Counted from the stretch's first letter, positions 24,484 to 44,938 are shown. The stretch is 64,000 nucleotides of DNA from Thiotrichales bacterium (GCA_947478525.1 CANJVU010000003.1:55562-119561); one strand, 5' to 3'. The notes: a model not told the origin generated them from the sequence alone. Numbers and translations: made by a program.

Positions 24484-24501
24484 AGTGATTGTTGTTAACA
24501 T

Positions 24502-24527
24502 AAAAAGGCAGCTTCGGCTGCCTTTTT
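24502..24527 (+). terminator. rho-independent terminator after rpoC
   Basis: AAAAAGGCAGC-TTCG-GCTGCCTTTTT. A perfect 6-bp GC-rich stem with a tetraloop and T-run (A/T-flanked, so possibly bidirectional). Confidence 0.85.
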
Positions 24528-24595
24528 ACTATTTGTGCTTCTATATTGAGAGGGTAAATGATACAATTCAACCACTGATTTTTTAGGACATTATA

Positions 24596-25375
24596 ATGAA
24601 AGCAGTCATTTTAGCGGGTGGTTTGGGTACTCGTTTAAGCGAAGAAACTGATAAAAAACCTAAACCAATGGTCGAAATTGGTGGCAAGCCAATCTTGTGG
24701 CATTTGATGAAAATGTACTCCGCTCATGGTGTGAATGAGTTTATCATTTGCTTGGGCTACAAGGGTTATTTGATCAAAGAGTATTTTGCCAATTATTTTT
24801 TACATACCTCTGATGTGACCATTGATATTGAACACAATCAGATTGAAGTTCATGCCAAAAAAGGTGAACCCTGGAAGATTACTCTGGTAGATACAGGTGA
24901 TACGACCATGACGGGTGGGCGTTTAAAACGTGTTAAACCGTATCTCAACCCCAAAGAACATTTTTGTTTTACCTATGGCGATGGTTTAAGCGATATTAAT
25001 ATTACCGAATTGATTGCATTTCATCAAAAGCATCAACAGCTGGCTACGGTCACTGCAGTTAAACCTGCGGGTCGTTTTGGGGTTTTGGATCTGGCCGATG
25101 ATCATACTCAAGTCAGATCTTTTCAAGAGAAACCTAAAGGTGATGGGGCCTGGATCAACGGTGGGTTTTTTGTATTGTCTCCCAAAGTCATTGATTATAT
25201 TGATGCGGATGAAACCATTTGGGAACAAGCGCCTATGAGAAAATTAGCCACTGACAACCAAATGAATGCTTTTTTACATGAAGGTTTTTGGCAACCGATG
25301 GATACCTTGCGTGAAAAAGTGCTGTTAGAGAAACTATGGGATAGCGGTAAGGCGCCCTGGAAAATCTGGTCATGA
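24596..25375 (+). CDS. rfbF: glucose-1-phosphate cytidylyltransferase
   Basis: [32 protein letters not shown] nucleotidyltransferase loop. 259 aa, and the stop overlaps the next gene. Confidence 0.9.
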
Positions 25376-26439
25376 ATACCGCTTTTTGGTCTACTAAAAA
25401 AGTATTGCTTACTGGTCATACCGGTTTTAAAGGCAGTTGGCTCAGCCTCTGGTTGCAACAAGCCGGTGCCAAATTATGCGGTATTGCCTTGCCACCCAAT
25501 ACTCAGCCTAATTTATTTGAATTGGCACAAGTGGTTGAAGGTATGCAGAGTCACTTTGTTGATATTCGCGATGCCGCTGCCGTTAAAAAAATCATGGATA
25601 CCTTTAAGCCAGAGATTGTCATTCATATGGCTGCTCAGCCACTGGTGCGCTATTCCTATGACTTCCCCGTCGAAACCTATGCCACTAATGTGATGGGTAC
25701 GGTGCATGTATTGGAAGCCGCGCGGCATTGTGACAGCGTGCGCGTGGTGGTGAACGTCACCACGGATAAATGCTATGAAAACCGTGAGTGGGTATGGGGT
25801 TATCGTGAAAACGAGCCCATGGGTGGACATGACCCTTACAGCAACAGCAAAGGCTGCTCGGAGCTGGTGACCAGCGCGTATCGAAATTCTTTTTATCATA
25901 AAGCGGGGAAAGGCCTTGCTTCCGCTCGGGCGGGTAATGTCATTGGTGGCGGTGATTGGGCGTTAGATCGCTTAGTCCCGGATATTATCAACAGCATTAT
26001 TCATAAACAACCGGTGGCAGTACGTAATCCAACCGCCATTCGCCCCTGGCAACATGTATTAGAACCGTTATCGGGTTATCTATTATTGGCCGAGAAATTG
26101 TGGGATAATCCCAAGCATTATGCAGAAGGGTGGAATTTCGGACCCCATGTGCATGATGCCGTCAATGTGGGTATAGTGGTTGAAAAAATATTGGCTCAAT
26201 GGGGTTCTGATCATGCGGGTTCTAAACACGAATCGCAGCAAGGTGCACCACATGAAGCGAATTATTTGAAGCTGGATATCACCAAAGCCCAAGCTGAGCT
26301 ACACTGGCAACCGCGTTTGACCTTGGATATGACTTTGCAGTGGCTGGTAGAATGGTACCATGCCTGGATGCGAAAAGAAGACATGAAAGTATTTACGTTG
26401 AAACAAATTGAACAATATCAAAATAAAGCAGGAGTATAA
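25372..26439 (+). CDS. rfbG: CDP-glucose 4,6-dehydratase
   Basis: [13 protein letters not shown] Rossmann motif, DPYSNSK (YxxxK), 355 aa, directly after rfbF. Confidence 0.9.
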
Positions 26440-26440
26440 G

Positions 26441-27649
26441 ATGAGCAAAGAACAATTTATCCACGTCCCTTATGGTAAAGCTGTATGGGGTGAAGCTGAG
26501 AAGAAAGCCGTAATGCACGTATTGGACACCTCCACTCAAATGGGCAAACATGTTCGTGATATGGAAGCAGGCGTTGCTAAATTATTTGATAAAAAACATG
26601 GTATTATGGTCAATTCTGGTTCTTCTGCCAACTATCTGGCGGTTGAGATCATGAATTTGCCCAAAGGCAGTGAAGTGATCACACCTGTCTTAACGTTCTC
26701 AACCACGGTAGCGCCGTTGGTTAAAGCAGGGTTGATTCCTGCGTTTGTGGATGCAGAACCTGCGACGTTCAATATTGACGCCAATCAAATTGAAGCGATG
26801 ATTACGCCAAAAACCAAAGCGATGTTTATTCCTAATTTATTGGGTAACTTGCCAGACTGGCATAAAATCCGTGCGTTAGCTGACAAATACAATCTATTTT
26901 TGGTTGAAGACTCTGCGGATACCTTGGGTGCGACGATTGATGGCAAAACCGCCGGGCGTTTTGTCGATTTGTCCACCACCAGTTTTTATGGTTCGCATGT
27001 GGTGACATGCGGCGGTAACGGCGGTATGGTTTGTGTGAATGATGACAAAATGGCGGATCGCGCTAAACTTTTGCGCAGCTGGGGCCGTAGCTCTTCTTTG
27101 TTCGTCGAGTCGGAAGCCATTGAAAACCGTTTCAACACCAAAGTGGATGGCGTACAATACGACGCTAAATTTATCTTTGAAGCCTTGGGTTATAATATTG
27201 AGCCCAATGAAATGTGCGCAGCCTTTGGACTGGTACAGTTGGATTATCTGCAAAAAAATATTGATATTCGTAACCAGTGGTTCAAAAGACAACGTGACTT
27301 CTTTGCGCAATATCCTCAATTTTTTACCTTGCCCGAGCAGTTGCCGCATTCCCGTACGGGCTGGTTGGCGTTCCCCTTTATTATTAAAGACGGCGCACCG
27401 TTTACGCGCACCGAGATGCAGATTTTCTTGGAGAAACGCAATATCCAAACACGTACGGTATTCACCGGTAATATCTTACGCCAACCTGGCTTTTCCGATA
27501 TTGAATGCCGTAAGGATCCAGCAGGTTACCCTAATAGCGACCGCGTGATGAAAAATGGAATGCTGTTAGCCTGTCATCACGGATTGACCGAGGAAATGCT
27601 GGCGCATGTGCATGAGTCGGTGGCGTTGTTCTTGAAACAATTTAACTAG
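26441..27649 (+). CDS. rfbH: RfbH/ColD-family PLP/PMP-dependent NDP-4-keto-6-deoxyhexose 3-dehydratase (DegT/DnrJ/EryC1 fold)
   Basis: SFYGSHVVTCGGNGG has His where aminotransferases carry the PLP lysine. TGWLAFPFIIKDG and RTVFTGNILRQP are typical of RfbH/ColD. Start set at ATG 26441 (SD AGGAG). The protein has no C-x-C motif. Confidence 0.85.
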   Translation: MSKEQFIHVPYGKAVWGEAEKKAVMHVLDTSTQMGKHVRDMEAGVAKLFDKKHGIMVNSGSSANYLAVEIMNLPKGSEVITPVLTFSTTVAPLVKAGLIPAFVDAEPATFNIDANQIEAMITPKTKAMFIPNLLGNLPDWHKIRALADKYNLFLVEDSADTLGATIDGKTAGRFVDLSTTSFYGSHVVTCGGNGGMVCVNDDKMADRAKLLRSWGRSSSLFVESEAIENRFNTKVDGVQYDAKFIFEALGYNIEPNEMCAAFGLVQLDYLQKNIDIRNQWFKRQRDFFAQYPQFFTLPEQLPHSRTGWLAFPFIIKDGAPFTRTEMQIFLEKRNIQTRTVFTGNILRQPGFSDIECRKDPAGYPNSDRVMKNGMLLACHHGLTEEMLAHVHESVALFLKQFN

Positions 27650-27668
27650 ATTACAGGTAGTTAGTAAG

Positions 27669-28214
27669 ATGAAATTTGCTGAAACTAAAATCCCCGGATG
27701 TTTTGAGATCACTCCTTTTGTGCATCAGGATGATCGTGGATGTTTCGTCAAAATTTTTAACGAAAGTGTGTTTCAGCAACACGGCTTGTCATTCGAAACC
27801 AAAGAAGAATATTTCTCGATTTCAAAAAAGGGCGTTTTGCGAGGTATGCACTTCCAAATGCCACCCGACCATCATGCGAAATTGGTCTATTGTATTGAGG
27901 GCGAAGTGTTAGATGTTTTGGTGGATTTGCGTGTCGATTCGCCTGTGTATGGAAAGCCTGTGACATTTCAGCTCAATAGCACTAGACGCAATATTCTTTT
28001 AATTCCGGTGGGGGTTGCCCATGGTTTTTATACGGTGAGTGATCAAGCGACCTTGATTTATAAAACCAGTACGATTCATGCGCCTCAATCCGATGCAGGG
28101 ATTTTGTGGTCTTCTTTCCCGGACTTATGGCCAACGAATCAGCCTAATTTATCGGATCGAGATAAGAAACATCCTTTGTTAAAAGATTTTCAATCACCTT
28201 TTAAGATGGGGTAA
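27669..28214 (+). CDS. RmlC-like cupin sugar nucleotide 3,5- (or 5-) epimerase
   Basis: FVHQDDRGCFVK, LRGMHFQ and PVGVAHGF motifs of the dTDP-4-dehydrorhamnose 3,5-epimerase fold. Distinct from the bona fide rmlC at 39254. Confidence 0.8.
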   Translation: MKFAETKIPGCFEITPFVHQDDRGCFVKIFNESVFQQHGLSFETKEEYFSISKKGVLRGMHFQMPPDHHAKLVYCIEGEVLDVLVDLRVDSPVYGKPVTFQLNSTRRNILLIPVGVAHGFYTVSDQATLIYKTSTIHAPQSDAGILWSSFPDLWPTNQPNLSDRDKKHPLLKDFQSPFKMG

Positions 28215-28219
28215 AGTAG

Positions 28220-29119
28220 ATGTTAAAGCGGGCGTTACTGACCGGAGCAACCGGATATTTAGGGTCTGAGCTGGTTAAGTATTTATTACGTCAGCAAGTT
28301 CAGGTCAGCATCATTGTCAGGCCGCATTCAGATTTATCTATTTTGCAGAATGAATTAGCGCATATAAAAGTTTTTGTAGATCAACAAGATCACGATGCTT
28401 TAGTGGCTTTTATAAAGGCAGAAGCGCCGGAGGTGGCATTTCACCTGGCCTCTTTGTTTATTGTAGAGCATCAGCCTGTTCAGGTGACCGCATTGATTGA
28501 GGCTAATGTTTTATTCTCGACACGTTTATGTGAAGCCATGCGAGCAGCAGGAGTGAAGCGTTTGGTGAATACAGGTACGTCATGGCAGCACTATCAAAAT
28601 ACTGAGTATAAGCCAGTGAATCTGTATGCCGCGACCAAACAAGCGTTTTATGATATTTTGTGTTATTACGTCGATGCACATGAATTTCAAGTGATTAATC
28701 TAGAATTGTTTGATACTTATGGCCCTCTTGACCGGCGTAAAAAATTAATTCAAATTTTGCTAAAACACATTAATAATCCCACTCCACTGGAAATGTCACC
28801 AGGAGATCAAATTTTGGATTTACTGCACGTGGATGATGTGTGTGAGGCATATCATTGTGCAGCGAAACAGTTGCAAGCCAGTTATGTGGCATGTTTTGAA
28901 AGCTATATGTTGGGTACGGAACAGCCTGTCACGCTAAAAGCGTTGGTGGCGTTACTACAGAAGCTCGCTGTGCCTAGAAAATTACTGGTGAACTTTGGAG
29001 GAAGGTCTTATCGCAATCGAGAAGTGATGGAACTTTGGCAGAAGGGAAAACAATTGCCGAATTGGCGTCCTCGTGTATCTTTATATGAGGGGCTGAAAAA
29101 CCTTGTGGGGCAAGCATGA
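28220..29119 (+). CDS. NAD(P)-dependent SDR epimerase/reductase (candidate NDP-4-keto-3,6-dideoxyhexose reductase)
   Basis: LLTGATGYLGSELV Rossmann motif and YAATK (YxxxK). Sits after the dehydratase and epimerase genes. Confidence 0.8.
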   Translation: MLKRALLTGATGYLGSELVKYLLRQQVQVSIIVRPHSDLSILQNELAHIKVFVDQQDHDALVAFIKAEAPEVAFHLASLFIVEHQPVQVTALIEANVLFSTRLCEAMRAAGVKRLVNTGTSWQHYQNTEYKPVNLYAATKQAFYDILCYYVDAHEFQVINLELFDTYGPLDRRKKLIQILLKHINNPTPLEMSPGDQILDLLHVDDVCEAYHCAAKQLQASYVACFESYMLGTEQPVTLKALVALLQKLAVPRKLLVNFGGRSYRNREVMELWQKGKQLPNWRPRVSLYEGLKNLVGQA

Positions 29120-30612
29120 TAAAGAAATTTGTCACCAGTGGTTTGGGGAGTTTTTACTTAATTGTGACACAATCCCTGGGGTATTTATTTATTACCCACT
29201 TATTGATTCGATATTTACCTCCTATTTATGCTTCTGCGTGGTTTTTATTTATCTCCATTGCTTTGTTCGTGAGCATTTTTGATTTTGGTTTGTCTCCTAC
29301 CTTGAGTCGTGAGATTGGATTTTCTCATGGCAATGAAGGGCTAGATAAAAAACGGTTACTGGGAACCATTTATACAGCTGTTTCTCTAAATACAATAATG
29401 GCATTTGTATTGCTTTTGGTTGGCATCATAGGGGGGGGAGCTTACCTTCATCATGTTTTTCCGAAAGTTGATTACCCCATTATTTCCCATGCCTATTTCT
29501 ATTTCTTGTTTGGTACTTTTTTTATGTTTCTCAGTAACCCTTTTTTTGCGGTACACTACGGGTTTGGGCATGTTGCAACAGAGCGATTTTTGCGTTCGCT
29601 GTCTTGGCTCTTGGCGATGTTACTGTTATATATTGGGGTTAAGTGTAATCTTAGTTTTCCACAGTTAGGGATGTTGTGGCTTACTCAGGGAGTGATTGTA
29701 CATTTCATTGCTAGAGTCTATACGATAGTCAAGTTTAAACTCCACTTTCTGAGCGTGTATATTGATTATAAACAGTTACCGTTGATCATAGGACCTTCCT
29801 TGAAATGGGCGGTTATGTCGTTTGGAGCAATTTTAATTTTACAAACCAGTAATTTTGTCATTGCCAGTGCATTAAAACCGGAGTTGATTGCACAATATGC
29901 GCCCTTGATGCAACTAGCGACCGCGATCATGACGTTAGGCGGTGTTGTGCAATTAGCACTGGTGCCTATGGTATCAAAATTAATGGGCAAAGGAGAGCAT
30001 CAAAAAATTAGAGGTATATTGCTATTTTCGAGTAGGACAACGTTATGCTTAGTACTGCTGCCTGCTATTTGTTTGTTATGCTGGGGAGGTGAGATTGTAC
30101 ATTTTTGGTTGGGGGCGGCTTTCCATTATTCTTTTGGGATTATGGTGGTCTTGCTTATTATGTCAGTTCTGGAATCTCATCATGTTTCCTGTGCTGCTGT
30201 AGTGATGGCCACAGGGTATATAAAATTTATGATTCCAGCACTGTTGTCTGGTGTCCTGACCCTCGTTTTTTCAGTTTGTTTTGCGCATTATTGGGGGTTG
30301 GTAGGGGTTGCTCTAGGTGTGATGTGTGCCCAACTGATGACCAATAACTGGTACGCGGTGTTTGTTTCTTTAAGGTGTCTTCATGTGAGTGCGGGTTCGT
30401 TTTTTTATAATTTACTCCCTGTCTTTTTTTACGCAATTATTTTGTTTGGAGTTGGATGTCTTTTATCTTATTGGCATCAATCCGTGGGGTTGTGGATGCT
30501 TTTATTTAATTTGCTAATATTGTCTATGGTTGCAGCTATTTTTTTAATGCTACTCTATTGGAAAAACATATCAGGGTTTTGTCAATTATCTAGGAAAAAT
30601 CATCATGAATAA
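29116..30612 (+). CDS. wzx: O-antigen/polysaccharide flippase (Wzx-like, multi-TM)
   Basis: 498 aa and strongly hydrophobic, with about 12-14 predicted TM segments. ATGA overlap with the upstream gene. AT-rich. Position is typical of wzx. Confidence 0.7.
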   Translation: MIKKFVTSGLGSFYLIVTQSLGYLFITHLLIRYLPPIYASAWFLFISIALFVSIFDFGLSPTLSREIGFSHGNEGLDKKRLLGTIYTAVSLNTIMAFVLLLVGIIGGGAYLHHVFPKVDYPIISHAYFYFLFGTFFMFLSNPFFAVHYGFGHVATERFLRSLSWLLAMLLLYIGVKCNLSFPQLGMLWLTQGVIVHFIARVYTIVKFKLHFLSVYIDYKQLPLIIGPSLKWAVMSFGAILILQTSNFVIASALKPELIAQYAPLMQLATAIMTLGGVVQLALVPMVSKLMGKGEHQKIRGILLFSSRTTLCLVLLPAICLLCWGGEIVHFWLGAAFHYSFGIMVVLLIMSVLESHHVSCAAVVMATGYIKFMIPALLSGVLTLVFSVCFAHYWGLVGVALGVMCAQLMTNNWYAVFVSLRCLHVSAGSFFYNLLPVFFYAIILFGVGCLLSYWHQSVGLWMLLFNLLILSMVAAIFLMLLYWKNISGFCQLSRKNHHE

Positions 30613-31534
30613 TATACCCTTGTTTAGTATTGCTATTCCTACCTTCAATCGTTTGGAATATTTTAAGTTGGCACTAAACAGCGCTTTGGCTCAAACTTAT
30701 CAAAATGTAGAAATTGTAATTTTAGATAATGCTTCTAGTGATGGTACGCAAGCGTATTTAAATGATGTTATTACCCAGCACTCAAACATCACCGTTATTC
30801 GAAACGATGAGAATATTGGTTTTGCGCGAAATATTATGCAAATTCCCCAGTATATCAAAGGAAAATACTTAACTGTATTATCGGATGATGATTTATTGAT
30901 GCCGACCTTTGTTGAACTTGCAGTAAGCTCGATGGAAACATCAGAGAATATTGCTTTATGGTATTGTCGAACTCAACTAATTGATGCAAGCGGTGCGAAT
31001 CTCAGATTAACGCCTGATTACTCAACTAAAGTTGAAGAGGGAGCTGATTTTATTCGTGATATTATTGTATGTAAAAAAATTAATCCATATTGGTGTTCTG
31101 TAGTTTATAGAGTAAAAAATTTGATAACAATAGGCGGCTTCGTTAATGTCGGCAATGCACTCGATTTTGCTGCAAATTGTTGTGTAGCCTCTCAAGGAAT
31201 GGTCGTTTTTAATAAAAAAACATTATCTTTTTATCGATCTTACGATACTAATCTAACGAGAAAAACACATTTTTTTGAATGGTTTGAGTCTGAATATGCT
31301 GCTTTTCAGCATATTCAAAAACATTATTTTTTCCCAATAAAAATGGCGGATAAATTTTTTTCTAGAGTATTAGTGTCAAGGTTAAATAAAATAAAATGTC
31401 TTGAATTGTTTGATATGTTAAGTTATGGTGTCCATCGCTATGGAGTCGGCGTTTATTTTTGGTTTTTTATATACTTACCGCGTTTTTTTGTTAAAATTTT
31501 TTTGTTAAAAATAGGGTTTTGGAATGCCAGATAA
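30605..31534 (+). CDS. family 2 glycosyltransferase
   Basis: FSIAIPTFNRLEYFKLALNSALAQTYQNVEIVILDNASSDGT and LSDDD (DxD). Confidence 0.85.
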   Translation: MNNIPLFSIAIPTFNRLEYFKLALNSALAQTYQNVEIVILDNASSDGTQAYLNDVITQHSNITVIRNDENIGFARNIMQIPQYIKGKYLTVLSDDDLLMPTFVELAVSSMETSENIALWYCRTQLIDASGANLRLTPDYSTKVEEGADFIRDIIVCKKINPYWCSVVYRVKNLITIGGFVNVGNALDFAANCCVASQGMVVFNKKTLSFYRSYDTNLTRKTHFFEWFESEYAAFQHIQKHYFFPIKMADKFFSRVLVSRLNKIKCLELFDMLSYGVHRYGVGVYFWFFIYLPRFFVKIFLLKIGFWNAR

Positions 31535-31569
31535 TAAACAGTTTCGTTTTTTTAACAAAAGGAAGTAAA

Positions 31570-33039
31570 ATGTTTTCCATTGTTTTTGGTTATGAAATAG
31601 CGATTGCAATTTTTGCTATTGCCCTCTATTTTTTGTTTCACAGAGATATTTTTTCGCTCTTCTTGATGTCAATAGTATTGGCGATTTTTCAAGCATCCGC
31701 GCTCTTGAATTTTCATATTGGACAACACGGTTTTGGTATCCAACCAGTTTTATTTTCGTTGTTTTTTTTATTACTCGCCTATCTGACAGTCAAAGAGGAA
31801 AAAGCCATACTAAAAGAGACTGTTGTTTATTTTTGGCCCCTATTTGCTTTTGCTGCATTTGCTGTTGTATTAAACTTTATAGGCCCATGGCTATTTCATG
31901 GAATGCCTATCTCTAACCCCCGTGTTGGAATAACGGGTTATTCTGAGCCCTTGCAATTTACTTCGACCAATATTACGTATTCTATCTATATTGTTTTTTA
32001 TGTATGTGTTTTTGCTGCAGTAACAAGTTATGTGCGCCGAATGTCGCTTTCTTCAGTGAAAACTTTATTTCGCATAACAATCATTACTTTTTTGGTGGTT
32101 ATCATCATTAGTCTATATCAAATGATGGTCATGAGATCTTTCCCTGGATATTGGCCAGAGTTTTTGATTAATAATAAACTGGGCGTTGCTCAGTTATTTT
32201 ATGAAACGCTAGGTAATTATCCCAAGGCTTCAGGCACTTTTACGGAACCTTCATTTTTATCCTATTATCTCAGTGGGATATTTATGGGACTTTCTTTGCT
32301 ATGGCTGACTCAAAAAGAAAAATGCGCCTGGAACGTTTTGATTCTTTTATTGTTGGCGGTGTTTGGACTGATCATTACATTATCATCAACCGCATATGTT
32401 GCGATGGTTTTTGAATCTATAATTATTTTAATTCTTGCGTGGCGCCTCAGTATGAGGGCTTTTTGGAAGTGGCTTCTTGTGATGTTATCAATATTTATAT
32501 TATCTTGTGCGGTGCATGTTGCCATGAAGACAATCTATTACCGCGATCTTCCAGTCAAAACTGCTCCACCGATTGCTGCATCATTTCCTATTGCTCAGCA
32601 TGCTAGGCCTCCTAGTATCTTAGAGAGTGTGTTGTTCTCAAAAAATAAAACACAATCTTTTGTGCAACGAAATTATGTTGATAAGCTTGCATTGAAGGAT
32701 TTTGTAGATTCTTGGGGAGTTGGTATTGGTGGAGGGTCCTATAGAGCATCTTCTCTTTTAACCACATTTCTAGTGGGCAATGGAATAATCGGGTTAATTT
32801 TGATTATTTTATTTTTGCGGAAGCTTTTTACAATCTCTACCGCTGATGTGGTATTAAATTCCATGTGGCGTAAGTATATTTTCTTTTTTGGCGGTAGCAC
32901 CCTTGGGAATTTGATTGCGGGATGTATTGCTGTTCCTGATATTAGTGTTGCTTTCTTTTGGTTGAATTTATCTATATGGATAGGGTTGTCGTGGAACAAA
33001 AATAAATCTGATCAGGAGTGTTCGCCGGTATGCCATTAA
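31570..33039 (+). CDS. wzy: O-antigen polymerase (Wzy-like) / O-antigen ligase family membrane protein
   Basis: About 490 aa with at least 10 TM segments and one larger loop. Very AT-rich and lies between glycosyltransferase genes. Start set at ATG 31570 (SD AAGGAAG). Confidence 0.6.
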   Translation: MFSIVFGYEIAIAIFAIALYFLFHRDIFSLFLMSIVLAIFQASALLNFHIGQHGFGIQPVLFSLFFLLLAYLTVKEEKAILKETVVYFWPLFAFAAFAVVLNFIGPWLFHGMPISNPRVGITGYSEPLQFTSTNITYSIYIVFYVCVFAAVTSYVRRMSLSSVKTLFRITIITFLVVIIISLYQMMVMRSFPGYWPEFLINNKLGVAQLFYETLGNYPKASGTFTEPSFLSYYLSGIFMGLSLLWLTQKEKCAWNVLILLLLAVFGLIITLSSTAYVAMVFESIIILILAWRLSMRAFWKWLLVMLSIFILSCAVHVAMKTIYYRDLPVKTAPPIAASFPIAQHARPPSILESVLFSKNKTQSFVQRNYVDKLALKDFVDSWGVGIGGGSYRASSLLTTFLVGNGIIGLILIILFLRKLFTISTADVVLNSMWRKYIFFFGGSTLGNLIAGCIAVPDISVAFFWLNLSIWIGLSWNKNKSDQECSPVCH

Positions 33040-34979: not shown

Positions 34980-36904
<1,925 letters not shown>

Positions 36905-41692: not shown

Positions 41693-42790
41693 GTGATTCA
41701 GCCGGTTATTTTGTCTGGCGGTTCTGGTAGTCGATTGTGGCCACTGTCACGAGAAGAGCACCCCAAGCATTTGATTCCGTTGTTGGATCAGCAGACTTTG
41801 TTGCAAAAAACGTTGTTACGCTTGCAGGGGCTTTCTGATTTGCTGTCGCCGCTGGTGGTATGCAATGAACGGCAGCGCTTTATGGTGGCGCAACAGCTAC
41901 AAGATATTTCAGTTGATGCGCAAGCAATCGTCTTGGAACCAGTGGGGCGTAATACTGCGCCTGCGGTGGCGTTGGCTGCGATCAAGGCCATGGAGCAAGG
42001 CCAAGATCCTTTGTTGTTGGTATTGGCAGCAGATCATATGATCCAACAAGCCGATCTATTTCGAGAAACGGTAATGGATGCTGTTGCGTATGCCACCGCT
42101 GATCACTTGGTGACTTTTGGTGTGGTGCCCTTAAAGCCGCACACTGGTTATGGCTATATTCATCGCGGTAGTAGGATAGGGGCGCATGCCTATCAGGTGG
42201 CGCAGTTTGTCGAAAAACCCAGTCTGCCAACAGCGCAACAATATCTGCGGAGTGGTCATTATTATTGGAACAGCGGGATGTTTTTATTTAAAGCTTCTGT
42301 TTATCTCAAAGCACTGCAACACCATGCCCCGGAGATTTTAATGGCCTGTCAGTTAACCATGAAACATCAACAGCAAGATAGCGATTTTACGCGTATTGAT
42401 GCCGAGGCGTTTAAGCACTGTCCGGATATTTCGATTGATTATGCAGTAATGGAAAAAGCATCCAATGTCGCAGTATTACCCCTAGATGCCGGCTGGAGTG
42501 ATGTGGGTTCCTGGGAAAGTTTGTGGGAAGTATGCTTGCAAGATGCCCAAAACAACGTGGTGCAAGGAGATGTGTTGAGCGAAGGTGTCAGTAACAGTTA
42601 TCTGCGCGCAGAAAGTCGGCTACTGACGGTATTGGGCTTAAAAGAGGTGGTGGTGATTGAAACGCCAGATGCGGTGCTGGTGGCCGATATGAAGTACAGC
42701 CAGGCTGTGAAGAATGTGGTACAAATGTTGAAAAAAGCCAATCGCATTGAGCACATTCGTCATTTGGAAAGTGAGAAAAAACATGGCTAA
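41693..42790 (+). CDS. manC: mannose-1-phosphate guanylyltransferase (nucleotidyltransferase domain only, no PMI cupin domain)
   Basis: ILSGGSGSRLWPLSR, GYGYI and FVEKP motifs. GTG start. 365 aa, against roughly 470-480 aa for the bifunctional enzymes. Confidence 0.85.
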   Translation: MIQPVILSGGSGSRLWPLSREEHPKHLIPLLDQQTLLQKTLLRLQGLSDLLSPLVVCNERQRFMVAQQLQDISVDAQAIVLEPVGRNTAPAVALAAIKAMEQGQDPLLLVLAADHMIQQADLFRETVMDAVAYATADHLVTFGVVPLKPHTGYGYIHRGSRIGAHAYQVAQFVEKPSLPTAQQYLRSGHYYWNSGMFLFKASVYLKALQHHAPEILMACQLTMKHQQQDSDFTRIDAEAFKHCPDISIDYAVMEKASNVAVLPLDAGWSDVGSWESLWEVCLQDAQNNVVQGDVLSEGVSNSYLRAESRLLTVLGLKEVVVIETPDAVLVADMKYSQAVKNVVQMLKKANRIEHIRHLESEKKHG

Positions 42791-43760
42791 TATTTTGGTG
42801 ATTGGTGGTGCTGGCTATATCGGTTCACATATGGTTTTACTGCTGCAGTCTGCGGGATATCGAGTGGTGGTGCTGGATGATTTTTCCAGTGGCCATGATC
42901 ATGCAGACATCACCGTTGAAACCGTTCGGGGTAATTTGGGTGATGTGGCATTGCTCGATCGTTTATTCAAGCAATATCAGTTTGAGGCGGTCATGCATTT
43001 TGCTGCATTTATCCAAGTGGGTGAATCCGTACAAGAACCGGCGAAATATTATCACAACAACGTTTGCAATACTTTGGTGTTGCTCGATAAACTGCGCCAA
43101 TATCAGATTAATAAATTTATTTTTTCGTCAACAGCGGCCATTTTTGGCGAACCGCAGGGTGTGCCCATTGATGAAAATCACCCGAAAAATCCGCTGAATC
43201 CCTATGGTCGTACCAAATGGATGGTAGAGCAAATTTTGCAAGATTATGATGTTGCCTATGGCTTAAAGTCGGTTTGTTTACGTTATTTTAATGCCTGTGG
43301 AGCTGATCCATCCGGTCGTACGGGGGAGTGTCATGAACCAGAAACGCATTTGATTCCCCTGGTTTTACAAGCAGCATCCGGCAAGCGTGACAGCATTAAA
43401 GTGTTTGGGCGGGATTATGCAACGCCAGATGGAACCTGTCTGCGCGATTATGTTCACGTTACTGATTTGTGTCAGGCGCATTTGCTGGCGCTTGAGGTTT
43501 TGTTGAAAGGGGGCGCCAGTGCGCAATATAACTTGGGTAATGGCCAGGGGTTTTCGGTTCAACAAATCATTGAAGTGGCTCGACAAGTGACGCAGAAAGA
43601 GATTAAAGTAGTCGATGCACCACGTCGTGCGGGTGACCCTGCATGCTTAATTGCAGATAGCGCAAAGATTAAAAAGGAATTGGGCTGGAAACCCCAATAT
43701 TCAGATTTGGCGCTGATTATTGAACATGCGTGGCGGTGGGAGTTCACAGATTCTTGTTAA
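42783..43760 (+). CDS. galE: UDP-glucose 4-epimerase
   Basis: ILVIGGAGYIGSH, NPYGRTKWMVE and RDYVHVTDL motifs. The ATG at 42783 overlaps the manC stop (ATGGCTAA). Confidence 0.9.
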   Translation: MANILVIGGAGYIGSHMVLLLQSAGYRVVVLDDFSSGHDHADITVETVRGNLGDVALLDRLFKQYQFEAVMHFAAFIQVGESVQEPAKYYHNNVCNTLVLLDKLRQYQINKFIFSSTAAIFGEPQGVPIDENHPKNPLNPYGRTKWMVEQILQDYDVAYGLKSVCLRYFNACGADPSGRTGECHEPETHLIPLVLQAASGKRDSIKVFGRDYATPDGTCLRDYVHVTDLCQAHLLALEVLLKGGASAQYNLGNGQGFSVQQIIEVARQVTQKEIKVVDAPRRAGDPACLIADSAKIKKELGWKPQYSDLALIIEHAWRWEFTDSC

Positions 43761-43789
43761 ATGAATGGCTAGGGGCTAACATTATTGAT

Positions 43790-44938
43790 ATGAATAGGTG
43801 TGTTCACTTTGAGCGTTGTTCGGGCTGTTCCCTTGATTTAAGAAAAGAAAGCTATGATGAAAATAGTCTTTTTTTTGCGCAGGCATTCGCTTTTTTCAAA
43901 GCGTGTGGAATGGAAGATTTTAAGATTCATAGCGGGGCATTTATCGGCTTTCGAACACGAGCAAAATTAGCCATTCGAGGTGACGTCGGGCGTATTCAAA
44001 TTGGAATGTTTGAAGGGCGCTCACATCAGATTTTAGAAATTCCGTACTGCCAAGTTCAGCATCCTCGGATTAATCAAGCCGTATCCATTTTGCAAAGCTG
44101 GCTCAATGAGCAGGGTTTTTCGGCTTATCAGGAAACCACCGGGCAAGGGCTTTTTCGTTATGTTCAACTGACCATTTCTGAACAAGAAAAAATTCAGCTG
44201 GCGTTGGCCCTGAATTGCGAAGATCCGATTGAAGCAAAACTTGGCTTAGCGCTGCAGAGGTTTTGGGCTCAGCATGAAAATTTATTCCATTCTATTTGGT
44301 TGAATTTTAATGTTCGACGAGATAACGTTATTTTTGGGGAAGCGTGGACTTTATTTTCTGGCGAAACCTGGATGTGGCAAACATTTCTTAGCCGAGCGGT
44401 TGCTTTTCATCCGGCGAGTTTTATGCAAGCGAATCCTGCCATGTTTGAACAACTCTTGCAACGTTTGCAGGGTTTTATTCCAGAGGAGTCTATTATTGCG
44501 GAGTTCTATGCAGGGGGCGGTACCATTGGCTTAACGCTGTTAGATAGGGCTAAGCGGATTGATTTTAATGAAATTGACTCCGTGGCACATGCTTGTTTCC
44601 AGGCTTCCTGTTCAATATTACCGGAAGACAGTCGGAGTAAGCTTTCTTTTGTGGTAGGGAAAGCAGGGTCTTCTGATATTTTGAATCAACATGACGTTGA
44701 GCTTGTGATTGTGGATCCGCCCCGCAAAGGGCTTGATAAAAAATTGCTCGATAACATCATCGATGCTGATTCTGTGAAGCAGTTAATCTATATCAGTTGT
44801 GGCTTTGAGAGCTTTAAGCGAGATGCGAATCACCTGTTAAAAGCAGGGTTCTCTTTGAAATCTGCGGAAGCATTTTTATTTTTCCCGGGTACAGATCATT
44901 TGGAGATCTTAGCGGTGTTTGGGCGGAATGCGCCTTAA
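43790..44938 (+). CDS. RNA (uracil-5-)-methyltransferase, RlmC/RlmD/TrmA family
   Basis: N-terminal Cys cluster (CVHFERCSGCS ... C), FMQANP, VIVDPPRKGL and YISCGF (catalytic Cys) motifs. Start set at ATG 43790. Confidence 0.75.
   Translation: MNRCVHFERCSGCSLDLRKESYDENSLFFAQAFAFFKACGMEDFKIHSGAFIGFRTRAKLAIRGDVGRIQIGMFEGRSHQILEIPYCQVQHPRINQAVSILQSWLNEQGFSAYQETTGQGLFRYVQLTISEQEKIQLALALNCEDPIEAKLGLALQRFWAQHENLFHSIWLNFNVRRDNVIFGEAWTLFSGETWMWQTFLSRAVAFHPASFMQANPAMFEQLLQRLQGFIPEESIIAEFYAGGGTIGLTLLDRAKRIDFNEIDSVAHACFQASCSILPEDSRSKLSFVVGKAGSSDILNQHDVELVIVDPPRKGLDKKLLDNIIDADSVKQLIYISCGFESFKRDANHLLKAGFSLKSAEAFLFFPGTDHLEILAVFGRNAP

What the first reader, a model, noticed from the sequence alone, without database searches (positions are those of the whole stretch)
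24596..29119. CDP-dideoxyhexose-type pathway whose 3-dehydratase lacks the Fe-S cysteine motif, with no E3 reductase gene in the cluster
Seen in sequence: rfbF (CDP-glucose synthesis), rfbG (4,6-dehydratase), an RfbH/ColD-family protein, an RmlC-like epimerase and an SDR reductase are tightly packed. The RfbH-like protein has His in place of the PLP lysine (SFYGSH), the hallmark of 3-dehydratases. It has only 5 scattered Cys and no C-x-C pair anywhere. Every ORF from 24.6 to 43.8 kb is assigned, and none resembles a flavodoxin-reductase/[2Fe-2S] E3 protein. Established knowledge: the classical CDP-4-keto-6-deoxyglucose 3-dehydrase E1 (DdhC/AscC/RfbH) binds a [2Fe-2S] cluster through a C-X57-C-X1-C-X7-C motif and needs the E3 reductase (DdhD/AscD/RfbI). 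GDP-specific ColD has no cluster and needs no reductase. Inference: this may be a ColD-type, reductase-independent 3-deoxygenation acting on a CDP-sugar. Followed by epimerase and reductase, it would yield an ascarylose-like 3,6-dideoxyhexose. Alternatively the enzyme acts on the GDP-4-keto-6-deoxymannose made by gmd in the same cluster.
Basis: partly seen in the sequence, partly recalled or inferred. Interest (0 to 1): 0.6.

Follow-up and report, generated by a model that had tools for sequence, protein, structure and literature searches.

The report
Iron-sulfur-free CDP-sugar 3-dehydratase
This uncultured Legionella-like bacterium makes a rare 3,6-dideoxy surface sugar with a relative of the textbook enzyme E1 that has lost its iron-sulfur site and probably needs no reductase partner; the variant is widespread but, as far as I could find, has never been tested.

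Summary
Five tightly packed genes follow the rpoC terminator: rfbF, rfbG, an E1/RfbH-like enzyme (true start ATG 26441, 402 aa), a CDP-type RmlC-like epimerase and an SDR reductase. The E1-like protein keeps the catalytic His. All four [2Fe-2S] ligands of Yersinia E1 are replaced (Ala, Ser, Leu, Ile). It scores below NCBI's RfbH cut-off.

It belongs to a conserved clade that stays glued to rfbF-rfbG in relatives and in other phyla. None of 79 such loci holds an E3-like gene. Fifteen of 25 genomes carrying the enzyme have no E3-type (ferredoxin-FNR) protein at all.

Legionella maceachernii has a published LPS sugar, the 3,6-dideoxy sugar yersiniose A. Its genome has only cluster-free His-type enzymes and no E3-type protein.

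This genome does encode one orphan ferredoxin-FNR protein, but its distribution among relatives is unlinked to the dehydratase.

Best reading (about 0.6): a reductase-independent, ColD-style 3-deoxygenation of CDP-4-keto-6-deoxyglucose, here feeding an ascarylose-like sugar. The GDP-substrate alternative is not supported. Whether the cluster was lost independently of ColD is unresolved (AU p 0.35).

I found no publication on this variant. This scan has already noted it in about 30 other genomes.

The parts
24501..24528 (+). rpoC intrinsic terminator just before the cluster (context)
   Evidence: 12-bp stem followed by a T run; sequence read
24596..25375 (+). rfbF/ddhA, glucose-1-phosphate cytidylyltransferase (makes CDP-glucose)
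   Evidence: TIGR02623 equivalog, 452 bits against a cut-off of 300
25372..26439 (+). rfbG/ddhB, CDP-glucose 4,6-dehydratase (makes CDP-4-keto-6-deoxy-D-glucose)
   Evidence: TIGR02622 equivalog, 516 bits against a cut-off of 278
26441..27649 (+). E1/RfbH-like PMP/PLP enzyme, 402 aa. It has the catalytic His186 (SFYGSH) but none of the four [2Fe-2S] Cys ligands. Predicted Fe-S-free CDP-4-keto-6-deoxyglucose 3-dehydratase.
   Evidence: NF011936 316.5 bits, below the cut-off of 423; PF01041 266 bits. Residue-by-residue alignment to E1 3bcx. Start codon and RBS. AF2 model with pLDDT 95.8; best fold match is E1 3bcx at TM 0.90, then ColD at 0.86.
27669..28214 (+). RmlC-like cupin epimerase of the CDP-sugar type (AscE/WbcA-like); predicted 5-epimerase of the 3,6-dideoxy-4-keto sugar
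   Evidence: PF00908 183 bits. TIGR01221 152 bits, just under the cut-off of 155.75. [quoted passage not shown]
28220..29119 (+). Extended-SDR enzyme, predicted 4-ketoreductase that finishes the CDP-dideoxyhexose
   Evidence: PF01370 130 bits. No close solved relative; best is 58 bits. Homologs at 37-47% identity follow the epimerase in L015, L055 and the Fe-S E1 locus L043.
29116..30612 (+). Wzx-like O-unit flippase, translationally coupled to the reductase (context)
   Evidence: NF041503 127 bits, below its cut-off. Homologs follow the same pair in L015 and L055.
35010..36904 (+). gmd plus an Rmd-like GDP-4-keto-6-deoxymannose reductase. This is a separate GDP-6-deoxyhexose branch that consumes the gmd product.
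   Evidence: gmd: TIGR01472 486 bits against a cut-off of 415. The 287-aa SDR: PDB 4lw8 217 bits; 2pk3 and 6x3b, GDP-6-deoxy-D-lyxo-4-hexulose / GDP-6-deoxy-D-mannose reductases, about 113 bits.

Best explanation
The gene at 26441-27649 encodes a 3-dehydratase of the E1/ColD (His-for-Lys, DegT-fold) kind. It acts on CDP-4-keto-6-deoxy-D-glucose, which the two genes before it make.

It binds no iron-sulfur cluster, so it cannot take single electrons from an E3 reductase.

The most likely mechanism is the ColD one (inferred):
- PMP forms a Schiff base with the 4-keto group.
- His186 removes the C4' proton and the 3-OH leaves.
- The delta-3,4-enamine adduct is hydrolysed to PLP plus an enamine sugar.
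- That sugar tautomerises and loses ammonia, giving CDP-4-keto-3,6-dideoxy-D-glucose.
- An amino acid, probably L-glutamate, turns PLP back into PMP.

In this window the product is then 5-epimerised by the WbcA/AscE-like cupin and 4-reduced by the SDR. That would give a CDP-3,6-dideoxy-L-hexose, most simply CDP-ascarylose. The sugar is then used by the glycosyltransferases and Wzx of the same O-antigen/capsule cluster.

Shown here: the gene set, the kept His, the loss of every cluster ligand, the clade-wide linkage to rfbF-rfbG, and the absence of E3 from the loci and from most genomes that carry the enzyme.

Inferred: the 3-dehydration itself, the amino-acid-driven turnover, and the identity of the final sugar.
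For: (1) Ligand loss with the His retained: alignment to E1; for the family.

(2) It fails the RfbH equivalog cut-off (316.5 against 423). Scores are bimodal in 400 sampled Gammaproteobacteria: 11 genomes at 524-754 bits and about 18, the window's genome among them, at 286-368 bits.

(3) The rfbF-rfbG-E1like triad is conserved at 56-73% identity in 6 relatives and 10 other Gammaproteobacteria. Of 79 loci from many phyla, 49 have rfbF and 43 have rfbG within 6 kb.

(4) Downstream partners in relatives are enzymes known to use CDP-4-keto-3,6-dideoxyglucose, or modelled on ones that do:
- YerE-like ThDP enzymes.
- An ErwI/ErwJ/ErwE/ErwF-like set.
- Split transketolases.
See; the pathway logic is from PMC9306805.

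(5) A classical Fe-S E1 locus (L043; 634 bits to Yersinia E1) is followed by a WbcA-like epimerase (47% identical to the window's) and an SDR (37%). Both enzyme types therefore feed the same downstream pair.

(6) E3:
- 0 of 79 loci have an E3-like ORF within 10 kb.
- 15 of 25 genomes carrying the enzyme have no full-length Fer2-FNR match. These include assemblies rated 99-100% complete (G008, G014, G029, G034, G186).
- All 10 Fe-S-RfbH genomes have one.

(7) L. maceachernii ATCC 35300. Its LPS is reported to contain yersiniose A, a 3,6-dideoxy branched octose (Sonesson & Jantzen 1992, as cited in PMC7867332).
- The genome has an Fe-S-free E1-like gene next to rfbF, with a YerE-like gene nearby.
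- It has one ColD-like His enzyme.
- It has no RfbH above the cut-off.
- It has no Fer2-FNR fusion.

(8) The high-confidence model is closest to E1, then ColD.
Against: No biochemical test of any clade member was found, so the dehydration and the reductant are inferred from homology and context.

This genome does encode one E3-architecture protein (348 aa, 30% identical to a cluster-linked E3).

A linked E3 is also missing from 7 of 8 classical RfbH loci. 'No E3 in the cluster' alone is therefore weak evidence.

The Legionella argument rests on a cited 1992 composition study. I did not verify that the same strain was analysed, and that genome has two candidate dehydratases.

The stereochemistry of the epimerase and the reductase cannot be read from sequence, so 'ascarylose' is a guess.
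Confidence: 0.6

Rival explanations
1. The enzyme is still a reductive, E1-type dehydratase. It gets its electrons from another partner, for example the genome's orphan Fer2-FNR protein or a general ferredoxin/flavodoxin system as SpnQ does. These would reach the PMP-glucoseen directly or through a cluster bound by unconventional ligands.
For: The genome has a 348-aa Fer2+FNR protein of E3 architecture (G000:C13:22166-23209), 30% identical to a cluster-linked E3. SpnQ shows that a dedicated E3 is not obligatory (PMC8987622). Most classical RfbH loci sampled also lack a linked E3.
Against: All four ligands are replaced by Ala, Ser, Leu and Ile. No Cys column is conserved in the clade, and some members have only 2-3 Cys. 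SpnQ keeps the Cys motif.

The Fer2-FNR gene stands alone among MltA, Mpl, DUF3108, SohB and DnaB genes. Its closest homologs are in relatives without the dehydratase (G001, G010). Fifteen of 25 carriers have no such protein.
Confidence: 0.1
2. The protein is not a 3-dehydratase. It does other PMP/PLP chemistry on the CDP-4-keto sugar, for example a His-dependent 4-transamination. Alternatively the epimerase and reductase act directly on the rfbG product, as in the WbcA/WbcB route to CDP-6-deoxy-D-gulose. The final sugar would then keep its 3-OH or carry an amino group.
For: The epimerase's best solved relative is WbcA, which belongs to a pathway with no 3-deoxygenation. SpnQ can transaminate when no reductase is present (PMC8987622). 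No member of the clade has been assayed.
Against: Every characterised His-for-Lys member of this fold (E1, ColD, SpnQ) is a 3-dehydratase. All 116 His-type sequences form one clade apart from the Lys aminotransferases, with SH-aLRT 99.

The triad persists in loci that have no epimerase, and it is followed by YerE/Erw-type enzymes whose known substrate is the 3,6-dideoxy-4-keto sugar. The same epimerase + SDR pair also follows a genuine Fe-S E1 (L043).
Confidence: 0.15
3. The enzyme is a true ColD acting on the GDP-4-keto-6-deoxymannose made by the cluster's gmd, and it feeds a colitose-like sugar.
For: gmd and manC are in the same cluster. Like ColD, the protein has no cluster. The AU test does not reject grouping its clade with the ColD-like clade (p 0.354).
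Against: The gene is translationally packed behind rfbF-rfbG. This triad is conserved in loci that have no gmd at all. gmd is 7.4 kb downstream and overlaps its own Rmd-like reductase.

The ColD-like genes of relatives (L021-L023) lie in gmd operons, one gene after gmd. They are about 30% identical to this protein and fall in a separate clade with SH-aLRT 98. The protein scores higher against E1 than against ColD (232 against 174 bits).
Confidence: 0.03

Closest known systems
E1 (AscC / DdhC / RfbH), CDP-6-deoxy-L-threo-D-glycero-4-hexulose 3-dehydrase of Yersinia pseudotuberculosis and Salmonella (PDB 3bcx)
   Same: Best sequence match (232 bits) and best fold match (TM 0.90, 34% identity). 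Same DegT fold. Same His in place of the Schiff-base Lys. Same position directly after the CDP-glucose synthase and 4,6-dehydratase genes. Same kinds of downstream partners (epimerase + reductase; YerE-type enzymes in relatives).
   Different: All four [2Fe-2S] ligands are missing (C193, C251, C253, C261 replaced by A, S, L, I). It scores below the RfbH equivalog cut-off. There is no linked E3, and most genomes with this form have no E3-type protein. The one-electron reduction that defines E1 cannot operate.
ColD, GDP-4-keto-6-deoxy-D-mannose 3-dehydratase of E. coli O55 and others (PDB 2gms, 2r0t, 3b8x)
   Same: His-for-Lys dehydratase with no metal cluster and no reductase. It has a Ser before the catalytic His, where E1 has Ala. 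This is the mechanism I propose here.
   Different: About 30% identity. A different nucleotide context (gmd/GDP for ColD, rfbF-rfbG/CDP here). ColD-like sequences carry an 'AHGW-R' loop where this clade has 'SWGRSSS...'. ColD-like sequences form a separate clade in the free tree, although the AU test does not exclude a common Fe-S-free branch.
SpnQ, TDP-4-keto-2,6-dideoxyglucose 3-dehydrase of Saccharopolyspora spinosa
   Same: A His-type 3-dehydratase that has no dedicated E3.
   Different: SpnQ keeps the Cys motif and needs general ferredoxin/flavodoxin reductase pairs. It works on a TDP-2,6-dideoxy sugar next to a 2,3-dehydratase. A representative of that kind (P0259) has that context, and the window does not.
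Ascarylose pathway (AscA-F) of Y. pseudotuberculosis O:5a, and the WbcA/WbcB route to CDP-6-deoxy-D-gulose in Y. enterocolitica O:8
   Same: The same order of activities: cytidylyltransferase, 4,6-dehydratase, (3-dehydratase), RmlC-like CDP-sugar epimerase, SDR reductase. The epimerase's best solved relative is WbcA.
   Different: There is no AscD (E3) and no cluster in the AscC-like step. The stereochemical outcome of the last two steps is unknown.

Membership tests
E1 / RfbH / DdhC / AscC | DegT/aspartate-aminotransferase fold with His replacing the Schiff-base Lys | tested here: met
   PF01041 266 bits. His186 in SFYGSH aligns with E1 H220. Model TM 0.90 to 3bcx.
E1 / RfbH / DdhC / AscC | [2Fe-2S] motif C-X57-C-X1-C-X7-C (C193, C251, C253, C261) | tested here: not met
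   The aligned residues are A, S, L and I. No conserved Cys column in the clade.
E1 / RfbH / DdhC / AscC | Score above the curated NCBIfam equivalog cut-off (NF011936, 423 bits) | tested here: not met
   316.5 bits. True RfbH genes in sampled genomes score 524-754 bits.
E1 / RfbH / DdhC / AscC | Gene context: directly after the CDP-glucose synthase and CDP-glucose 4,6-dehydratase genes | tested here: met
   The triad is conserved in relatives and in other phyla.
E1 / RfbH / DdhC / AscC | Dedicated E3 reductase (AscD/DdhD/RfbI: Fer2 + FNR) as partner | tested here: inconclusive
   None in the window and none in 79 related loci. One orphan Fer2-FNR gene lies elsewhere in this genome. It is absent from 15 of 25 carrier genomes.
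ColD | His-type dehydratase without a metal cluster | tested here: met
ColD | GDP-mannose pathway context (in a gmd operon; ColC-type partner) | tested here: not met
   gmd is 7.4 kb away and paired with an Rmd-like reductase. ColD-like genes of relatives lie in gmd operons, one gene after gmd.
ColD | Falls inside the ColD clade | tested here: inconclusive
   The free tree puts it in a 48-row clade on the E1 side, and the ColD-like clade is separate at SH-aLRT 98. The AU test does not reject joining the two clades (p 0.354).
ColD | PMP regenerated from PLP by L-glutamate; ammonia released | not testable with these tools
   Needs an enzyme assay.
SpnQ-type TDP-sugar 3-dehydrase | Cys motif kept; 2,3-dehydratase and 3-ketoreductase genes nearby | tested here: not met
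   No Cys motif. No Hexose_dehydrat or GFO_IDH_MocA gene in the window. Compare the context of P0259.
Ascarylose-type CDP-3,6-dideoxy-L-hexose pathway | CDP-sugar RmlC-like epimerase plus 4-reductase after the 3-dehydratase | tested here: met
   The best solved relative of the epimerase is WbcA. The same pair follows a classical E1 in L043. Stereochemistry is not testable.

The most novel reading that the evidence does not exclude
This clade is a third working solution to C-3 deoxygenation of nucleotide sugars. It is an E1-descended enzyme that does the textbook CDP-pathway step with no iron-sulfur cluster and no E3, using an amino acid as the ultimate reductant as ColD does.

It is at least as common in nature as the textbook E1/E3 pair: about 18 against 11 of 400 sampled Gammaproteobacteria. 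It also occurs in Prochlorococcus, Ensifer, Flavobacteriales and Legionella.

It would be the real source of yersiniose in Legionella. It would also be a robust, oxygen-insensitive catalyst for making CDP-3,6-dideoxyhexoses.
Probability: 0.55. Interest if true: 0.7.

Novelty: new variant of a known kind. Interest (0 to 1): 0.6.

Why it matters
E1/E3 is the textbook example of radical, iron-sulfur-dependent sugar deoxygenation. The 2022 review of nucleotide-sugar dehydratases lists only E1, ColD and SpnQ (PMC8987622).

If a large E1-like clade does the same CDP-pathway step without any cluster or reductase, three things follow.

- The complex E1/E3 chemistry is not required for CDP-3,6-dideoxyhexoses.
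- Database labels such as 'CDP-4-dehydro-6-deoxyglucose reductase, E1' misdescribe many genes. So does the label 'NarL family transcriptional regulator' that some members carry.
- Pathway predictions that look for E3 will miss these sugars.

There is also a practical gain. Recombinant E1/E3 could not be made to work for preparative CDP-tyvelose synthesis, probably because of defective clusters (PMC7851689). A cluster-free enzyme would remove that obstacle for making dideoxyhexose antigens and glycoconjugate standards.

Tried and rejected
(1) GDP-substrate (true ColD) reading: rejected on synteny and similarity.

(2) 'E3 elsewhere rescues the classical mechanism'. I found one Fer2-FNR gene in this genome. 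Its context is housekeeping and its distribution among relatives is unrelated to the dehydratase.

(3) Alternative Cys ligands: none is conserved.

(4) Proving that the cluster was lost independently of ColD. The free tree says so, but the AU test does not reject a joint clade (dlnL 20.7, p 0.354). I do not claim it.

(5) Using 'no E3 in the cluster' as a discriminator. This is weak, because only 1 of 8 classical RfbH loci sampled has a linked E3.

(6) Getting an E3 reference through the look-up of encoding contigs. P0217 lies on a 1.7-kb contig and P0259 proved to be SpnQ-like. I used the E3 next to the RfbH gene of L042 instead.

(7) The L. micdadei locus: P0087 is not on record, so I used L. 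maceachernii.

(8) Papers on WbcA, the ColD structure and E1 retro-evolution (PMC4594662, PMC2242600, PMC2515278) are not held. I therefore could not compare glutamate-binding residues of ColD with this protein.

(9) Six further literature searches found no description of a cluster-free CDP-sugar 3-dehydratase. The library lacks most subscription journals, so this is not proof of absence.

Full report
**What is there.**
The window is G000:C3:55562-119561 of a 2.12-Mb, 99.99%-complete genome of an uncultured Legionella-like gammaproteobacterium. A polysaccharide cluster starts right after rplKAJL-rpoBC and the rpoC terminator at 24501-28.

The first five genes overlap or are separated by at most about 20 bases:
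- rfbF, 24596-25375: TIGR02623, 452 bits.
- rfbG, 25372-26439: TIGR02622, 516 bits.
- An RfbH-like gene.
- An RmlC-like gene, 27669-28214.
- An SDR gene, 28220-29119.

The rest of the cluster holds:
- a Wzx-like gene and glycosyltransferases;
- an unassigned 506-aa ORF;
- gmd with an overlapping Rmd-like reductase;
- wcaJ and rmlACDB;
- a short manC and galE.

The RfbH-like gene starts at ATG 26441. It has an AGGAG 7 nt upstream, one base after the rfbG stop, and encodes 402 aa.

HMMER aligns the protein with Yersinia E1 over its whole length (3bcx, 232 bits) and less well with ColD (174 bits).
- E1's H220 aligns with His186 (SFYGSH).
- E1's EDCCDALG reads EDSADTLG here.
- E1's [20 protein letters not shown] reads SWGRSSSLFVESEAIENRF here.
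- The cluster ligands C193, C251, C253 and C261 are therefore Ala, Ser, Leu and Ile.
- The protein has five Cys, none in a C-x-C.

The protein scores 316.5 bits on NCBI's RfbH model, whose cut-off is 423. No ORF of the cluster matches a ferredoxin or FNR family. An AlphaFold model (pLDDT 95.8) is closest to E1 (TM 0.90), then ColD and perosamine synthase (0.86). The only dip in confidence is the loop that replaces the Cys-rich loop of E1.

**It is a clade, not a one-off.**
More than 120 clusters at 90% identity are over 69% identical to the protein. They come from Legionella, Tatlockia, Coxiellaceae and many MAGs.

A search without a word index gave 956 representatives at E <= 1e-30.
- Of the 85 full-length representatives among the best 150, every one has the His.
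- Twenty-six of those 85 have the C-x-C...C loop; with the locus sequences added it is 34 of 116 His-type sequences.
- The ones nearest the window have none.
- No Cys column is conserved in the window's clade, and some members have only two or three Cys.

In 400 evenly drawn Gammaproteobacteria, RfbH-model scores are bimodal. Eleven genomes score 524-754 bits. About 18, the window's genome among them, score 286-368 bits. In that sample the cluster-free form is at least as frequent as the textbook enzyme.

**What it acts on.**
The order rfbF, rfbG, E1-like is kept in six relatives and ten other Gammaproteobacteria, with the E1-like protein 56-73% identical. Among 79 loci from Alpha- and Gammaproteobacteria, Bacteroidota, Prochlorococcus and others, 49 have rfbF and 43 have rfbG within 6 kb.

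Three relatives have a ColD-like gene of 389 aa, about 30% identical to the window's protein. It lies in a gmd operon, one gene after gmd (L021-L023). In the window, gmd is 7.4 kb downstream and overlaps its own reductase. The substrate is therefore the rfbG product, CDP-4-keto-6-deoxy-D-glucose, not the GDP-sugar.

**What it makes.**
What follows the triad varies:
- the epimerase + SDR pair (window, L015, L055);
- an SDR alone;
- a YerE-like ThDP enzyme;
- an acetaldehyde dehydrogenase + aldolase + SDR + ThDP set, which matches ErwJ/ErwI/ErwF/ErwE;
- a split transketolase.

YerE's established acceptor is CDP-4-keto-3,6-dideoxy-D-glucose, and the Erw set was defined by analogy (PMC9306805).

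A locus with a genuine Fe-S E1 is also informative (L043). Its E1 scores 634 bits to the Yersinia enzyme and has the CYCAPG...C loop. It is followed by an epimerase 47% identical and an SDR 37% identical to the window's. Both epimerases match the CDP-sugar epimerase WbcA (5buv) best. The two kinds of dehydratase thus feed the same downstream enzymes, which argues that they give the same product.

After C-5 epimerisation and C-4 reduction the simplest product is CDP-ascarylose. The stereochemistry cannot be read from sequence.

**The reductase question.**
None of the 79 related loci has an E3-like ORF within 10 kb. On its own this is weak, because only one of eight classical RfbH loci sampled has E3 beside it (L042:6431-7504).

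With that E3 as query:
- All ten Fe-S-RfbH genomes tested have a full-length ferredoxin-FNR homolog somewhere.
- Fifteen of 25 genomes carrying the cluster-free enzyme have none. They have only FNR-only proteins of 240-280 aa.
- For G008, G014, G029, G034, G186 and L. maceachernii this was confirmed with separate Fer2 and NAD_binding_1 searches, whose hits never coincide.

Genome size confounds the contrast between the two groups. The positive statement still stands: the enzyme is kept in assemblies rated essentially complete that have no E3-type protein.

The window's own genome does have one (C13:22166-23209, 348 aa, 30% identical to the linked E3).
- It is a lone gene between MltA/Mpl and DUF3108/SohB/DnaB genes.
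- Its nearest homologs (41-44%) are in relatives that lack the dehydratase.
- Several relatives with the dehydratase lack it.

**An organism with known chemistry.**
The LPS of L. micdadei and L. maceachernii is reported to contain yersiniose A, a 3,6-dideoxy-4-C-branched sugar (Sonesson & Jantzen 1992, cited in PMC7867332).

L. maceachernii ATCC 35300 carries a member of this clade, 72% identical to the window's protein. It lies directly after rfbF, with a YerE-like gene 9 kb away (L082). The genome has no RfbH above the cut-off and no ferredoxin-FNR fusion.

Its only other His-type enzyme is a ColD-like one, also Cys-free, behind a split transketolase (L143). So in a bacterium shown to make a 3,6-dideoxy sugar, the 3-deoxygenation must be done by a cluster-free enzyme without E3. 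This is the nearest thing to functional evidence that I could obtain.

Two points remain open. I did not verify that the sequenced strain is the one analysed. Which of the two enzymes is responsible is an inference from the neighbouring rfbF and YerE-like genes.

**Mechanism.**
Without a cluster, the two one-electron transfers that define E1 have no path. The only documented alternative in this fold is ColD's: hydrolysis of the PLP-enamine adduct, loss of ammonia, and regeneration of PMP by glutamate (PMC8987622).

I therefore propose that chemistry on the CDP-sugar, at about 0.6. Like ColD, and unlike E1, the clade has Ser before the catalytic His. I do not lean on that detail.

**Relationship to ColD.**
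In a quick LG+G4 tree of 121 sequences:
- The His-type proteins form one clade (SH-aLRT 99).
- ColD-like sequences form a separate clade (98).
- The window lies in a 48-member, entirely Cys-free clade (100), inside a group (96) that also holds the classical E1 enzymes.
- Fe-S-bearing sequences are scattered, and starred branches force at least four changes of state.

An AU test does not reject a tree that joins the ColD-like clade and the window's clade (dlnL 20.7, p 0.354). An independent loss of the cluster is what the best tree shows, not a demonstrated fact.

**Novelty and prior notes.**
The 2022 review lists only E1, ColD and SpnQ. Seven literature searches found nothing on a cluster-free CDP-sugar 3-dehydratase. 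The library is incomplete, so this is not proof of absence.

This scan has noted the same clade in about 30 other genomes, with the same reading. None of those notes mentions L. maceachernii.

I class the finding as a new variant of a known kind: real, widespread, and biochemically untested.

Noticed in passing
L143:7278-10315 (G438:C16, Legionella maceachernii ATCC 35300): A second His-type, Cys-free, ColD-like enzyme ('YAHH', 'RSHGMVRE') sits directly after a split transketolase and before an NTP-transferase, about 19 kb from the rfbF-E1like pair. This looks like a second, transketolase-type branched-sugar route in an organism with published LPS chemistry.
   Followed up: partly
L042-L049 (classical Fe-S RfbH loci of sampled Gammaproteobacteria): Only 1 of 8 loci has the E3 gene beside rfbF (L042:6431-7504). 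Most of the others have a roughly 40%-identical Fer2-FNR gene elsewhere in the genome. The textbook ddhD-ddhABC linkage is therefore not general.
   Followed up: partly
G000:C13:22166-23209 (own genome, outside the window): An orphan 348-aa ferredoxin + FNR protein, with its best NCBIfam match to Fre at 199.7 bits, below the cut-off of 230. It stands alone on the minus strand between Mpl/ATPase and DUF3108/SohB/DnaB genes. Its function is unknown.
   Followed up: partly
window 41693-42790: manC is only 365 aa and matches positions 1-358 of the 467-position GMP_PMI model, so the C-terminal isomerase part is missing. The galE ORF overlaps its end.
   Followed up: no
window 30000-33039: G+C falls to 0.35 here, against about 0.45 around it. 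The 506-aa ORF at 31519-33039 matches no Pfam or NCBIfam family. It is probably a Wzy-type polymerase in a horizontally acquired middle part of the cluster.
   Followed up: no
window 43730-44938: An RlmD-like rRNA methyltransferase ORF scores 153 bits, below the RlmD cut-off of 183.55, and begins inside the end of galE. It marks the downstream border of the cluster.
   Followed up: no
L018:4538-9358 and L080, L081, L083, L086: An ErwJ/ErwI/ErwF/ErwE-like set (acetaldehyde dehydrogenase, DmpG-type aldolase, SDR, ThDP enzyme) follows the Fe-S-free dehydratase in several Legionellales-like genomes. This predicts erwiniose-type acyl-branched sugars outside Pectobacterium.
   Followed up: partly
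one search hit list (P0041, P0068, P0087): Several public records name members of this clade 'NarL family transcriptional regulator'. This is an annotation error that has propagated among Legionella entries.
   Followed up: no
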